Assembly (NCBI GenBank): GCA_964486045.1
Contig: CAZALK010000011.1
Location: 32,001-96,000, forward strand
Length of the DNA stretch: 64,000 nt
DNA from: an uncultured archaeon
Lineage (GTDB): Archaea; Asgardarchaeota; Lokiarchaeia; Sigyniarchaeales; SOKP01
Direction of reading: 5' to 3'
This document shows, piece after piece, positions 49,743-61,434 of this stretch. Under the pieces are notes generated by a model. That model saw nothing but the letters and a program-made list of their open reading frames with translations. It was not told the origin of the DNA and ran no database searches. The translations under genes and the position numbers were made by a program. The first letter of the stretch is position 1. Each line of letters starts with the position of its first letter.

Positions 49743-50402
49743 ATGATAGATTCTAAGGACGCAAGTGAAAAAGGGTTGTATAAAGATATCCTTGCTGTAT
49801 GTCCTACATGTAAATCAAAAAAGGAGTTGAAGATTCCCACCAAAATTATAAATCAGAGTAAACAATTAACAACTGTTTCTATCCCTTCAGGAACCGTATG
49901 TGAACACAGTTTTCAATCTTTTGTAGATAAGAACTTTGTAGTAAGGGGATATCAAAAAGTCGACTTTGAATTCGCGAAGATGGAATTTTATGAAGGAGGA
50001 GGGGAACTCGCTGAGTCTGAACCGGATGATCAAGCGTCTCAAATAATTTCACAGCCATTATTCCAAGAGATAGTTAATCTTTTAAGAAGTTATGTCGATG
50101 ATAAAGAGATTTTAGGGAGTGGGATGTTTACTGTTGAAGGACATGTACTATATTCCTCACTTCCAAGCAATACACTCTTTTCAATAACAAAAGAATTTGA
50201 AGTTAGAAGTGAGAAGAAGTTAAGTAGCTTAAAAAAGATGTATTTAGAGTTGGAAAATAATCAAAAAATTTGTTCAAATTACATTGAGTTTCAAGATAGG
50301 AGGTTTGCTTTAGTATTATTTTTCTCTCAATTAGTAAAGTTAGGAATGGGCAACTTATACCTTAATGATTTAGTTAAGAAAATTAAGAAATTAGAGGGTT
50401 AA
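49743..50402 (+). CDS. Asgard-type Zn-ribbon plus roadblock/profilin-like domain protein
   Basis: CPTC..CEHSFQSFVDKNFVVRGY N-terminal domain; C-terminal ILGSGMFTVEGHVLYSSLP. Confidence 0.55.
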   Translation: MIDSKDASEKGLYKDILAVCPTCKSKKELKIPTKIINQSKQLTTVSIPSGTVCEHSFQSFVDKNFVVRGYQKVDFEFAKMEFYEGGGELAESEPDDQASQIISQPLFQEIVNLLRSYVDDKEILGSGMFTVEGHVLYSSLPSNTLFSITKEFEVRSEKKLSSLKKMYLELENNQKICSNYIEFQDRRFALVLFFSQLVKLGMGNLYLNDLVKKIKKLEG

Positions 50403-50851
50403 TTCTCAAATTTAATCGGTTTTATTGCTTTTTCAGGACATAGTGCTTCACATCTTAAACATCCTTGACATTTAGCTATTTCTCTAAACGCAAATCTAAT
50501 CCCTTCTACTTCTTGATTTCCTTTGTTTTTTACAATGCCTTTATAAAAAAGATTTTTTAGGCAAAAATTACCACTTTTATCATGGCATTCTTCGCACATT
50601 GAACATTTTTCATGATCGATTTTGATACTAACTATTTGATTTTCAAATTCAATTGATGTAACTTCTACAGCATTCCTAGGACAGACTTGAACACAATTTA
50701 AACATGCTTTACACTTAGTATAATCAATTAACCTAACACTATGCTTAAAATATCTTGCTTGAGCTTTGCATGCTCGTAGGCACCATTCACACCTTAAACA
50801 TAATTCTTGATTTATCTGAACCGGAACGATTTTTTCTTTAATTTTTATCAA
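50399..50851 (-). CDS. polyferredoxin (4Fe-4S dicluster domains)
   Basis: Four CxxCxxC...C(P) motifs. Confidence 0.88.
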   Translation of the reverse strand: MIKIKEKIVPVQINQELCLRCEWCLRACKAQARYFKHSVRLIDYTKCKACLNCVQVCPRNAVEVTSIEFENQIVSIKIDHEKCSMCEECHDKSGNFCLKNLFYKGIVKNKGNQEVEGIRFAFREIAKCQGCLRCEALCPEKAIKPIKFEN

Positions 50852-51048
50852 AATCTACCACATGCTTGAATTAAATATTCGATATCTTGGAGAGGAATAA
50901 ATCTTATGCAAATAGGGCAAAATAGGTCAATAACTGCTGTACTATGTTTATTATAATTTATAATTTTGCAGTATTCTCTCCAACTTTGGTTTTTAGATAA
51001 AAAATAGTTTAATAAAAAAATAATTATAAAAAATTGAAAAAAAATGCC

Positions 51049-51875
51049 CTATTGAAAATATTGAGTGTATTCTTTACCAGTGCCTGGTAATTGTTGTTGT
51101 TGTTGATATTGTTGCGCTTTTTGAGCAAGTTCTAGCATTTTTGCTTTAATATCTTTACCTTGTTCAATAAGTTCTGAGGTCTTAATCTCTAAGTTATAAA
51201 TTTTGTTGAGAACTTCAAGAATGCTAGCTGCACCCTCTGGTGTTGGTATTTCAAGAACAGGAGTGAATAAAGCATAAGCTTGCAGTCTGTTTGTTAGTGC
51301 TTCGTTTAATACTGTAGCTTCTGGTCCAACTATTATGCCCCTATCGAGTTTGCTAATGCCAAATTTTTCAAGAGACTCCATCATTGCCTTTTCAGCGGCG
51401 TAATAAACAGGATATTCATCAATGATTCCCCGTTGCGGCATACCTTGGAAAATTACGATTTCCTTTGCCTTAACATCCTCAGATAAAGCCCAATTACATA
51501 GAGTTCTTGACAAGTCATTGTAGGCTGATGGAATTTGAAAAGGAACCTCACAGATACCAATAATCAAGTTATTCAGCGGAGAATAAAGAAGTCTAAAAGG
51601 ATGTTTTAAAACTCCTGAATAGAAAACACTTATTGGAGGAAGATATTCACTAGTTACAAATCCAATTTCTTGAACATCCGTTAATTGCTTTATTAGAGTA
51701 TTGGCAACAATAGGACCAATTAGACCGATCCCTGCAAAACCTAAGATAAATGATGCTCCTTCCTTTATATCAACAGACAAATTGTCAATTACAACGGAAC
51801 TTTTTTTGCCTTAAACCTCTATGGTGAAATACCAGATTGTAGAGTTTTTTTACAAATATATTCCTTTTTATCCAA
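51049..51875 (-). CDS. PAC2 family proteasome assembly chaperone (PbaA/PbaB-like); join(51875..51846, 51810..51049)
   Basis: GFAGIGLIGPI, PFRL, G.IVGP, PTPEGAA. A 10-codon first exon from TTG 51875 (SD GATGTGA) joins in frame after removal of the BHB intron. Confidence 0.85.
51811..51845 (-). other. 35-nt BHB intron in PAC2-family gene
   Basis: UUUGU-AAAA-AA^A-CUCUA..UAGAG-GUUU-AA^G-GCAAA: outer helix, 4-nt central helix and two 3-nt bulges. Contains an in-frame TAG; removal restores the frame. Confidence 0.72.
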
Positions 51876-52119
51876 TGTAATCACATCTCTTTGTTAATTT
51901 TTTGCTTTTTAATCACTTTAATTTATTTGTAGTATATTTGATATTAGAATTCTACCATATTAATATTAATTCTATTTTTTAAAATATCTACGGATTTTCA
52001 TTTACAAGTTAATAGTTCTATATCTTTATCTTTTATTGTTTTTTTCTTTAAAGAAGCTGTTAATAAATCTTATATGAAATTATACATTAAGCAAAAATAA
52101 AAATTATATCGTGAAAATC

Positions 52120-52635
52120 ATGGAGAAAAAAGATTTGAATGAGGGAGATGAAGCCCCGCTGTTTAAGTTAGAATCGTATAATGCCGAGACAATTGATTTG
52201 GCAGAATTTAAGGGACAAAAAGTTGTTTTAATTTTCTCTAGATATTGGGGTTGCCCAATTTGTCAGATTGATTTCAAAATTTTGATGGATCGTAAATCTG
52301 AGATTGAAGATAAGGGAGCAAAGATTTTATACATTACTCAATCAAGTGAAAAAGTAGCAAAAGAATATATTGAAAAGGAGAATATTAACTTTCCCGTTAT
52401 ACCAAGTTCTAAGGATGAATTATATGCAGAGTATGGATTAGGATTGATGAATCCGGAAACTGTTAAACAAATTCCACTTAAATTAAAAGATGTAATGAAA
52501 TATGGCTTTAAACATGGAGAATATGAAGGTTGGGAGAAACAAGGACCGGGGCAATTCGTTATAGATGAGCAAGGTATAATAATTCATACTTTAAAAGGAT
52601 GGCTTGACATTGATAGCTTAATTTCAGTGTTCTAG
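52120..52635 (+). CDS. AhpC/TSA peroxiredoxin-like protein (PRXL2-like)
   Basis: GDEAPLF, FSRYWGCPICQ, QGPGQFVIDEQG. ATG 52120 (the track uses GTG 52111). Confidence 0.85.
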   Translation: MEKKDLNEGDEAPLFKLESYNAETIDLAEFKGQKVVLIFSRYWGCPICQIDFKILMDRKSEIEDKGAKILYITQSSEKVAKEYIEKENINFPVIPSSKDELYAEYGLGLMNPETVKQIPLKLKDVMKYGFKHGEYEGWEKQGPGQFVIDEQGIIIHTLKGWLDIDSLISVF

Positions 52636-61165: not shown

Positions 61166-61434
61166 TTATCTTTCCAATTGGAAGTTGACTTGAACTCTCA
61201 CTCTATTCACAAGCTACACGAAAAGTGTCTCTTTATATATGAGCTTGTCAACATCCTCTTTAACTTTAACGTCCGATTCAATTATCTGAATATTTCTAAT
61301 TCCACGTAAAGTTTTTTTAGCTTCTTCATATGCGTTTTTAGTTGAATAAAACATGAGTATTTTTATCCTTTAACCGCATCTGCCCAATTTTTTTCACTAG
61401 TTGATACTAATTGAATTGACTTATAAACTGGCAT
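61166..61434 (-). CDS. dodecin (flavin-binding), interrupted by two BHB introns; join(61434..61370, 61337..61235, 61204..61166)
   Basis: Spliced product MPVYKSIQLVSTSEKNWADAVKNAYEEAKKTLRGIRNIQIIESDVKVKEDVDKLIYRVRVQVNFQLER (68 aa) shows the dodecin pattern YK.I.LV.TS..W..A..A..TLR..YRV...F.L. AGTGA SD upstream. Confidence 0.88.
61205..61234 (-). other. 30-nt BHB intron 2 of dodecin gene
   Basis: GCUC-AUAU-AU^A-AAG..ACAC/GUGU..CUU-GUGA-AU^A-GAGU. Carries an in-frame TAG; removal gives LIYRVRV. Confidence 0.8.
61338..61369 (-). other. 32-nt BHB-type intron 1 of dodecin gene
   Basis: GGUU-AA^A-GGAUAAAA..UUUUAUUC-AACU-AA^A. Carries an in-frame TAA and shifts the frame; removal gives AVKNAY. Confidence 0.8.

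What the first reader, a model, noticed from the sequence alone, without database searches (positions are those of the whole stretch)
51811..51875. Third BHB intron, in the 5' end of the PAC2 proteasome-chaperone gene
Seen: a 10-codon exon (TTG 51875, SD GATGTGA, MDKKEYICKK) is followed by a 35-nt hairpin insert with an in-frame TAG. The geometry is textbook: UUUGU/GCAAA outer helix, AAAA/GUUU central helix (one A.G mismatch), AAA and AAG bulges, CUCUA/UAGAG inner helix. Canonical cleavage fuses the exon in frame to GKKSSVVIDNLSVDIKEG of the PAC2 ORF. Inference: production of a proteostasis factor could be gated by endonuclease/RtcB splicing, conceptually like non-spliceosomal HAC1/XBP1 splicing (speculative). 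Caveat: TTG 51780 offers an unspliced alternative start, but it has no evident SD.
Basis: partly seen in the sequence, partly recalled or inferred. Interest (0 to 1): 0.88.

Follow-up and report, generated by a model that had tools for sequence, protein, structure and literature searches.

The report
tRNA-type mini-intron in Asgard PAC2 gene
A 35-base hairpin splits the start of a proteasome-chaperone gene in a Loki-type Asgard archaeon exactly where related genomes have nothing or a similar insert, and it has the shape cut by the tRNA-splicing enzyme, so it is very probably a spliced protein-gene intron, which papers report in archaea for only one other gene (cbf5).

Summary
On the minus strand, a short first exon (start TTG 51875 or GTG 51884, ending KKEYICKK at 51846) is followed by 35 nt (51845-51811) with an in-frame TAG. 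The PAC2 frame reopens at 51810.

About 100 orthologs read MxKKEYICxKGKxSS without a break. The two closest relatives show a precise 35-nt empty site with nearly identical flanks.

Nine related sequences carry 30-32 nt inserts at the same site, and two more carry inserts 2 nt upstream and about 8 nt downstream. All same-site inserts fold as helix-bulge-helix-bulge-helix. Cutting after the second bulge base restores the conserved frame. Across the ten sequences, 96% of pair cells are paired, 10 of 18 pairs show compensatory changes, and 0 of 500 shuffles match this.

The genome encodes EndA alpha and beta-like subunits and RtcB.

Weak points: no RNA data could be obtained. The window's own central helix has one A.G mismatch. 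The HAC1-like gating idea has no support.

This scan has already reported the same phenomenon on other Asgard DNA. In the papers I searched, only cbf5 is reported as a spliced archaeal coding sequence. Verdict: a new member of a known kind, confidence about 0.85.

The parts
51881..51887 (-). GATGTGA: a Shine-Dalgarno-like motif (part of GGUGA) that also contains an in-frame GTG (51884-51882), a possible alternative start
   Evidence: A GGTGA/GTGAT-like motif sits 5-8 nt before the start in nearly all orthologs. The GTG is conserved in the window and in its two closest relatives, and one of those (L080) has CTG where the window has TTG.
51846..51875 (-). Exon 1: TTG start plus 9 codons (MDKKEYICKK); 13 codons (MITLDKKEYICKK) if the start is GTG 51884
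   Evidence: Orthologs begin MVKKEYICEK. Exon 1 is intact in all ten intron-bearing sequences.
51852..51856 (-). Outer helix h, 5' strand (UUUGU, exon 1)
   Evidence: Pairs 5 of 5 with GCAAA 51809-51805. The pairs stay standard in all ten sequences.
51848..51851 (-). Central helix H, 5' strand (AAAA, exon 1)
   Evidence: Pairs with GUUU 51816-51813: three A-U pairs and one A.G mismatch. The first pair is A-U here and G-C in the nine relatives, a compensatory change.
51845..51847 (-). 5' bulge AAA; predicted cut between 51846 and 51845
   Evidence: The canonical EndA rule (cut after the second bulge base) applied. The junction matches the ortholog empty site.
51811..51845 (-). 35-nt intron with in-frame TAG at 51821-51819; inner hairpin CUCUA (51844-51840) / UAGAG (51821-51817) plus UGGU/ACCA
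   Evidence: It is single-copy in the genome. It is absent from the closest relatives as a precise 35-nt gap. A DNA contig in run X3 skips exactly 51811-51845, and an independent contig in X4 spans the site without a gap.
51813..51816 (-). Central helix H, 3' strand (GUUU, intron)
51810..51812 (-). 3' bulge AAG; predicted cut between 51811 and 51810
51805..51809 (-). Outer helix h, 3' strand (GCAAA, exon 2)
51049..51810 (-). Exon 2: 253 codons of the PAC2 family protein plus the stop (51051-51049); the spliced product is 263 aa (266 aa from GTG)
   Evidence: PF09754 at E 5.6e-29. Orthologs are 263-266 aa. dN/dS against the closest relatives is 0.07-0.11.
51778..51780 (-). Internal TTG that gene callers use as the start (243-aa product), with no SD-like motif upstream
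   Evidence: P0001. The ten conserved codons upstream of it (GKKSSVVIDN) contain no start codon of their own.

Best explanation
The 35 nt at 51811-51845 (minus strand) are a bulge-helix-bulge (BHB) intron in the pre-mRNA of the single PAC2-family (proteasome assembly chaperone-like) gene of a Lokiarchaeia-type Asgard archaeon.

Exon 1 and exon 2 pair with each other (UUUGU/GCAAA). Exon 1 also pairs with the 3' end of the intron (AAAA/GUUU). This presents two 3-nt bulges four base pairs apart on top of an intron hairpin.

The splicing endonuclease (an EndA alpha plus beta-like pair, inferred to be a heterotetramer) would cut after the second base of each bulge, and RtcB would join the exons. 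The result is ...TGT AAA AAA|GGC AAA..., a 263-aa (or 266-aa) protein whose N-terminus, MxKKEYICKK-GKKSSVVIDN, matches the intron-less orthologs.

Without splicing, translation from the conserved start ends after 18 (or 21) codons, and the conserved first 20-23 residues cannot be made.

Shown: the insert, its exact boundaries against orthologs, the BHB geometry, covariation of the structure among relatives, the enzyme genes, and purifying selection on the gene.

Inferred: that cutting and ligation actually happen in the cell.
For: 1. Orthologs (80-91% identical) are 263-266 aa and read MVKKEYIC[EK]KGK[KR]SS without a break. The spliced window product would be 263 aa.

2. The two closest relatives form a 100/100-supported clade with the window. 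They show a precise 35-nt gap with almost identical flanks (A2).

3. Nine further sequences carry 30, 31 or 32 nt at the same site. Each has h 5/5, H 4/4 and 3-nt bulges, with an inner hairpin that closes directly on the motif.
   - These lengths include both frame-shifting and in-frame forms.
   - Close relatives differ by CAG/TAG/TAA at one codon inside the insert, so the insert is not coding.

4. Covariation over the ten sequences is strong: 96.1% of cells are paired and 10 of 18 pairs change on both sides. 0 of 500 shuffles reach these values, and slid controls reach at most 51%.
   - This includes G-C to A-U in the central helix of the window itself.

5. Two other lineages have inserts in different registers, 29 nt placed 2 nt upstream and 32 nt placed about 8 nt downstream. 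BHB cuts in their own registers restore the same conserved peptide.

6. The genome encodes two EndA-family proteins, both matching PF01974 and PF02778. One has the Tyr/His/Lys catalytic residues and one lacks the His. It also encodes RtcB.

7. The gene is single-copy with this query and under purifying selection, with dN/dS 0.07-0.11 at dS 0.47-0.76.
   - The ten codons between the intron and the internal TTG are conserved yet have no start codon of their own.

8. The insert is real DNA. An independent study's contig spans it without a gap.

9. BHB geometry of this stringency occurs at about 1e-4 of position/length combinations in this genome.

10. The N-terminal Cys and the (G/A)K.S..V motif are conserved even in other families of the order.
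Against: - No RNA data could be obtained for this locus, so excision is inferred and not observed.
- The window's central helix has an A.G mismatch next to the 5' bulge.
- Its BHB conformer is about 5 kcal/mol above the minimum-energy fold, against about 1.2 kcal/mol in eight of the nine relatives (4.1 in L060).
- The hairpin alone is not more stable than shuffles.
- An in-frame TTG at 51780 could give a 243-aa product without splicing.
- The exon-1 residues are modelled with low confidence in a fold of an ortholog, so their structural role is unclear.
Confidence: 0.85

Rival explanations
1. The insert is not spliced. The gene is expressed as a 243-aa protein from the internal TTG 51780, and exon 1 is a relic or a small upstream ORF.
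For: TTG 51780 is in frame and gene callers choose it. The window's BHB is the weakest of its family, with one mismatch and a conformer 5 kcal/mol above the MFE. No RNA evidence exists. Exon-1 residues have low model confidence.
Against: - Exon 1 with its start and SD-like motif is intact in all ten intron-bearing sequences.
- The ten codons upstream of TTG 51780 remain conserved without a start codon.
- The structure covaries, including a compensatory change in the window itself.
- The N-terminal segment is conserved across families.
- An internal start would delete a confidently modelled beta-strand, residues 17-21 of the ortholog.
- No SD-like motif precedes TTG 51780.
Confidence: 0.08
2. 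The intron is spliced, but only conditionally. It acts as a HAC1/XBP1-like switch that gates chaperone production under stress.
For: There is only an analogy: RtcB-type ligation also completes XBP1 splicing, which is established knowledge. The weak central helix could in principle make splicing tunable.
Against: Most orthologs (29 of 41 distinct sequences in the tree) lack any intron, and the closest relatives lack it, so no conserved regulatory role is indicated. The cut sites lie in 3-nt bulges, not in 7-nt IRE1-type loops. No IRE1-type RNase domain was found, although that search had no positive control. Similar inserts sit in an unrelated dodecin gene nearby.
Confidence: 0.04
3. The insert is an assembly or sequencing artefact, or a freshly inserted mobile element.
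For: The genome is metagenome-assembled.
Against: A contig from an independent study spans 51691-51903 without a gap. Homologous inserts occur at the same site in nine other sequences. The 35 nt have no other copy in the 5.18-Mb genome.
Confidence: 0.01
4. The ribosome bypasses the 35 nt by programmed translational hopping, as in T4 gene 60.
For: A hairpin with a stop codon lies between two coding segments.
Against: The take-off codon AAA has no matching landing codon before GGC. The bases there are UAA in the window and CAA or CAC in relatives. Insert lengths and sequences vary, while the BHB register, not codon matching, is what stays conserved.
Confidence: 0.01

Closest known systems
cbf5 pre-mRNA intron of Crenarchaeota (Watanabe 2002; Yoshinari 2006; Yokobori 2009, PMC2738675)
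   Same: Both are short BHB introns inside a protein-coding sequence. Both occur in lineages with a hetero-oligomeric EndA. Both have a patchy distribution with lineage-specific loss, and both mislead gene callers.
   Different: The gene differs (PAC2 family, not a pseudouridine synthase) and so does the phylum (Asgard/Promethearchaeota). The intron lies 10 codons from the start. Splicing is not shown experimentally here. At least three insert registers occur in the same 30-nt stretch among relatives.
Archaeal tRNA and rRNA BHB introns (Marck and Grosjean 2003, as cited in PMC5829648)
   Same: The geometry matches: 4-bp helix, two 3-nt bulges, flanking helices, and a cut after the second bulge base. 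The size is similar (30-35 nt), and the same enzymes are expected.
   Different: The host RNA is an mRNA. The outer helix is built from two coding exons, so the pairing bases are also constrained by codons (TGY Cys, GGY Gly).
BHB intron in the 5' UTR of Haloferax volcanii HVO_1309 (PMC7714728)
   Same: It is an EndA substrate in an mRNA.
   Different: That intron is in the untranslated leader and does not interrupt the reading frame. It was confirmed by circRNA-seq and in vitro cleavage, which are lacking here.
HAC1/XBP1 unconventional splicing (IRE1 plus tRNA ligase/RtcB)
   Same: It is non-spliceosomal, protein-catalysed cutting of an mRNA followed by ligation, and it changes the reading frame.
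   Different: IRE1 cuts in twin 7-nt loops and is stress-activated. Here the cut sites are 3-nt bulges of a BHB, no IRE1-type RNase domain was found (no positive control), and nothing indicates regulation.

Membership tests
Archaeal BHB (EndA-type) intron | [quoted passage not shown] | tested here: met
   Window: bulges AAA and AAG, central helix AAAA/GUUU with 3 of 4 pairs (one A.G), a relaxed form. Nine same-site relatives: GAAA/UUUC with 4 of 4 pairs.
Archaeal BHB (EndA-type) intron | Flanking helices h (outer) and h' (inner) adjoining the motif | tested here: met
   UUUGU/GCAAA pairs 5 of 5 and CUCUA/UAGAG pairs 5 of 5. In the ten-sequence alignment the outer helix is 100% paired and the three inner-helix pairs nearest the motif are also 100% paired.
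Archaeal BHB (EndA-type) intron | Cutting after the second base of each bulge yields the functional, contiguous RNA | tested here: met
   The predicted junction TGTAAAAAA|GGCAAA equals the empty site of the closest relatives and the conserved peptide KK|GKK. A DNA contig skips exactly 51811-51845.
Archaeal BHB (EndA-type) intron | Structure maintained in evolution (compensatory changes) | tested here: met
   96.1% of cells are paired, 10 of 18 pairs change on both sides, 0 of 500 shuffles are as high, and slid controls reach at most 51%.
Archaeal BHB (EndA-type) intron | Splicing endonuclease and RNA ligase encoded by the organism | tested here: met
   Two PF01974 plus PF02778 proteins, one alpha-like with Tyr/His/Lys and one beta-like. 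RtcB matches at E 3.6e-167.
Archaeal BHB (EndA-type) intron | Excision and exon ligation observed in RNA (junction reads, circular intron) | not testable with these tools
   No RNA run was listed for this DNA. Only DNA contigs could be laid.
PAC2 family (PF09754, proteasome assembly chaperone 2-like) | Match to the family profile above the curated cut-off | tested here: met
   E 5.6e-29, 101.9 bits against a cut-off of 25.8, covering profile positions 1-214 of 215. The chaperone function itself was not tested.
IRE1-type (HAC1/XBP1) unconventional splicing | Cut sites in twin stem-loops with 7-nt loops, and an IRE1 kinase/RNase | tested here: not met
   The cut sites lie in 3-nt bulges of a BHB. 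No PF06479 domain was found in the genome, though that search rang in no control genome.

The most novel reading that the evidence does not exclude
This intron is one visible member of a population of EndA-spliced mini-introns in ordinary mRNAs of Lokiarchaeia. These introns turn over (gain, precise loss, 2-nt sliding) at exon-defined 'proto-splice' sites where the two exons already supply half of the BHB motif. That would make Asgard archaea the first prokaryotes with eukaryote-like intron dynamics in protein genes, and many 'truncated' or oddly starting Asgard proteins would be annotation errors.

Support here:
- There are three registers within about 30 nt of one gene.
- At least 4 gains or losses of the same-site intron are needed on the gene tree (AU p = 2e-8 against a single clade).
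- Two more inserts lie in a dodecin gene 10 kb away.
- Ten of the 120 ortholog protein records examined have missing or aberrant N-termini traceable or attributable to an intron.
Probability: 0.35. Interest if true: 0.85.

Novelty: new member of a known kind. Interest (0 to 1): 0.72.

Why it matters
In the papers I could search, tRNA-endonuclease splicing of an archaeal coding sequence is reported only for cbf5 of Crenarchaeota, plus one 5'-UTR case in Haloferax. Here a second, unrelated gene in the archaeal lineage closest to eukaryotes needs such splicing to make its conserved N-terminus.

The intron shows presence, absence and register shifts among close relatives. That bears on how protein-gene introns arise and are lost without a spliceosome.

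There is also a practical consequence. Gene callers mis-annotate these genes: the window's protein is called 20 residues short, and several database orthologs carry N-termini that are the intron read in the exon-2 frame.

This single case is not unique within this scan. Earlier follow-ups reported the same phenomenon in other Asgard genomes, two of them with RNA-derived contigs.

Tried and rejected
- **RNA evidence.** No RNA holder was listed for this DNA in two searches.
- **Hairpin stability alone.** The z-score is -1.55, so this is not informative.
- **Rfam.** There was no match at E <= 1 in 51600-52100.
- **Mobile-element reading.** The 35 nt have no second copy in the genome.
- **Genome-wide count.** My strict BHB scan gave 43,527 candidates.
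  - I then applied an ORF-fusion test with shifted-cut controls. It showed no clear excess: 631 against 585-634 overall, and 90 against 68-80 for lengths 28-33.
  - Restricting to A-rich bulges gave none either.
  - The background comes from fusions of neighbouring genes, and the filter misses relaxed motifs such as the dodecin introns.
  - The test is therefore inconclusive, and I make no claim about a genome-wide number.
- **ARAGORN intron calls.** They are noisy, including Pyl and Stop 'tRNAs', and were used only as a hint.
- **Structure model of an intron-less ortholog.** Mean pLDDT was 72.5, and residues 1-8 were below 50. It gave no clear role for the exon-1 residues.
- **IRE1 RNase domain search.** Nothing was found, but no control genome rang either.
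- **Translational bypass.** Rejected for lack of matching take-off and landing codons.

Full report
**What is in the sequence**

On the minus strand, TTG 51875 opens MDKKEYICKK, which ends at 51846. The next 35 nt (51845-51811) carry an in-frame TAG at 51821-51819. A different frame then reopens at GGC 51810 as GKKSSVVIDNLSVDIKEG... and runs 253 codons to the stop at 51051-51049. That frame is a PAC2-family protein (PF09754, E 5.6e-29). Gene callers start it at the internal TTG 51780, giving 243 aa (P0001).

**Orthologs define the gap**

A protein search returned 390 relatives. The best 120 are 74-100% identical, and nearly all are 263-266 aa. Their N-termini read MVKKEYIC[EK]KGK[KR]SS[IV]VI[DE]D without interruption. 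Joining the window's exon 1 to the frame at 51810 gives 263 aa and the same peptide.

The two closest relatives are L079 (P0003) and L080 (P0002). They are 91% identical in protein and form a 100/100-supported clade with the window. Aligned at the DNA level, they show a precise 35-nt gap with almost identical flanks (A2).

Because an A precedes the insert and AA ends it, three placements of the gap are equivalent. The read-laying tool reported the same ambiguity ('both = 2') for a DNA contig in run X3 that skips exactly 51811-51845.

**The same site is occupied in other lineages**

Scanning orthologous loci from 40 related genomes, 24 GenBank contigs and several metagenome contigs turned up nine further sequences with an insert at the same place, between the second of the two [E/K]K codons that follow the Cys and the Gly codon:

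| Insert length | Loci |
|---|---|
| 30 nt | L019, L020, L021, L064 |
| 31 nt | L002, L013, L065 |
| 32 nt | L058, L060 |

L019 and L020 are in frame without a stop. Their close relatives L021 and L064 have TAG or TAA where those two have CAG. The 31-, 32- and 35-nt forms shift the frame. The insert is therefore not conserved as coding sequence, while exon 1 (M/L-VKKEY[IV]CEK) is intact in every case.

Several database proteins are mis-called because of this. P0057, P0062, P0065, P0066, P0074 and P0092 have N-termini that are the insert read in the exon-2 frame (P0057 also reads exon 1 out of frame).

**Geometry**

In the proper register, all ten sequences read as follows:

- outer helix h (UUUGY with GYAAA): 5 of 5 pairs
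- central helix H: 4 of 4 pairs (GAAA/UUUC) in the nine relatives, and 3 of 4 (AAAA/GUUU, one A.G) in the window
- 5' bulge AAU or AAA
- inner hairpin
- 3' bulge AAG (ACG in L002)

Cutting after the second bulge base gives the ortholog junction in every case. Geometry of this stringency is met by 43,527 of about 4.5e8 position/length combinations in this genome, roughly 1e-4. Its coincidence with an ortholog-defined gap is therefore not chance.

**Covariation**

On the ten-sequence alignment A1 with this structure:

- 96.1% of pair cells are standard pairs, against 82% in shuffles.
- 10 of 18 pairs change on both sides.
- The covariation score is 0.478 against 0.206, and 0 of 500 shuffles are as high.
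- Sliding the 3' partners by 1-3 columns drops pairing to 36-51%.

The window's own Glu-to-Lys change (GAA to AAA) in the central helix is matched by C to U on the other strand.

**Other registers**

L061 carries 29 nt placed 2 nt upstream. Its own central helix is GCGA/UCGU, and the cuts give C-E-K|G-K-R.

L066 is the second of two neighbouring PAC2 genes on its contig. It carries 32 nt about 8 nt downstream, with central helix CUGG/CCAG and a displaced outer helix. The cuts give G-K-K-S-K. I chose these registers partly by requiring the conserved frame, so they are supporting evidence, not independent proof.

**Machinery**

The genome (5.18 Mb, 45 contigs, 99% complete) encodes two roughly 200-aa EndA-family proteins. 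Each has the N-terminal and catalytic domains. One has Tyr, His and Lys at the expected places, and one lacks the His, which is the alpha/beta arrangement. It also encodes RtcB.

PMC5829648 reports that Asgard archaea have the (alpha-beta)2 enzyme with the L1 loop insert previously known only from TACK archaea, and that EndAs carrying such loop inserts have broad substrate specificity.

ARAGORN finds only 31 tRNA genes, 20 with intron calls and several plainly mis-called. This fits the heavily interrupted Asgard tRNA genes described in preprint 10.64898/2026.10.13.758758.

**Reality of the DNA, and selection**

A contig from an independent study (X4) spans 51691-51903 without a gap at about 95% identity. 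The 35 nt have no other copy in the genome.

The gene is single-copy with this query. Against L079 and L080, dN/dS is 0.07-0.11 at dS 0.47-0.76. The ten codons between the insert and TTG 51780 are conserved but have no start codon of their own.

PAC2 genes of other families in the order also begin with a Cys followed by (G/A)K.S..V.

**Distribution**

On a maximum-likelihood tree of exon 2 (41 distinct sequences), the same-site intron needs at least four gains or losses in every bootstrap tree. A single clade of intron-bearers is rejected (AU p = 2e-8).

The inserts share features of the loop region, including an invariant C and an AUUUC-like loop, along with the UUUC-AA 3' end. One old gain with several precise losses is therefore plausible, as proposed for cbf5 (PMC2738675). 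Repeated gain at a permissive site cannot be excluded.

**Context in the window**

Relatives lack exactly 32 and 30 nt inside the dodecin gene at 61338-61369 and 61205-61234.

A motif-free comparison of the window with 59 kb of collinear DNA from G013 found only two frame-breaking indels of 20-60 nt inside genes: the PAC2 insert and dodecin insert 2. Dodecin insert 1 is shared by both genomes. The other indels are intergenic, apart from one 24-nt in-frame indel in a surface protein.

My attempt at a genome-wide count was inconclusive.

**Weak points**

- No RNA run could be found, so splicing is inferred.
- The window's motif is the weakest of its family. It has one mismatch, and its BHB conformer is -4.9 kcal/mol against an MFE of -10.1. 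Eight of the nine relatives differ by only 1.2 kcal/mol, and L060 by 4.1.
- The local fold is not unusual against shuffles.
- The start may be GTG 51884 rather than TTG 51875. The GTG is conserved in the three closest sequences, and L080 has CTG at the TTG position.
- An AlphaFold model of ortholog P0003 gives low confidence for residues 1-8 and places a strand at residues 17-21. The internal start would delete that strand, but the role of exon 1 itself is unclear.

**Literature and novelty**

Five full-text searches found coding-sequence BHB introns in archaea only for cbf5 (Watanabe 2002; Yoshinari 2006; Yokobori 2009, PMC2738675). They also found a 5'-UTR intron in Haloferax (PMC7714728), whose authors say cbf5 is the only other example reported. 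Nothing turned up on Asgard mRNA introns.

This scan has already reported the same phenomenon on other Asgard DNA, twice with RNA-derived contigs lacking the intron. I did not test those reports.

**Verdict**

The BHB-intron reading is strongly supported by comparison and covariation, with confidence 0.85 for this copy and higher for the family. The HAC1-like gating idea is unsupported. This is a new member of a known kind.

Noticed in passing
window 61205-61234 and 61338-61369 (minus strand): The dodecin gene carries two further short inserts of 30 and 32 nt. Relatives G005, G006, G009 and G015 lack exactly these bases, while G013 shares the 32-nt insert and lacks the 30-nt one. They fail my strict BHB filter, so they are relaxed motifs.
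   Followed up: partly
L019 (G016) 2248-2307 and L020 (G015) 1420-1479: In two relatives the same-site PAC2 intron is 30 nt, in frame and free of stops. Both the spliced and the unspliced mRNA would give a full-length protein, the unspliced one with 10 extra residues. This is a natural case for testing whether splicing is complete.
   Followed up: no
L061 and L066 (PAC2 loci from metagenome contigs): Inserts sit in shifted registers in the same 30-nt stretch of the gene: 29 nt placed 2 nt upstream, and 32 nt placed about 8 nt downstream. L066 lies next to a second PAC2 gene on the same strand.
   Followed up: partly
Protein records P0057, P0062, P0065, P0066, P0074, P0078, P0092, P0093, P0096: Public annotations of intron-bearing orthologs have wrong N-termini. 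Either the intron is translated in the exon-2 frame or a later start is used. One record is filed as Hodarchaeota and one as Odinarchaeota, although all belong to this close group by sequence.
   Followed up: partly
whole genome G000: ARAGORN finds only 31 tRNA genes, 20 of them with intron calls, including implausible Pyl and Stop anticodons. This suggests many tRNA genes are interrupted at non-canonical positions and are missed or misread.
   Followed up: no
window 51846-51940 compared with L079 and L080: The leader and exon 1 are almost identical between the window and its closest relatives, although synonymous divergence over the gene is 0.47-0.76. The 5' region seems constrained at the nucleotide level, in intron-less relatives too.
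   Followed up: no
window 50399-52635: The neighbourhood is conserved: a peroxiredoxin-like (AhpC/TSA) gene is divergent upstream of PAC2 in two closely related contigs (an ABC-ATPase gene sits there in three others), and a 4Fe-4S ferredoxin-like gene lies downstream in most related contigs examined.
   Followed up: no
alignment A1, columns 34-39: The hairpin loops of the same-site introns share an AUUUC-like sequence with an invariant C, although the stems have diverged with compensatory changes. This may reflect common ancestry or a constraint on the loop.
   Followed up: no
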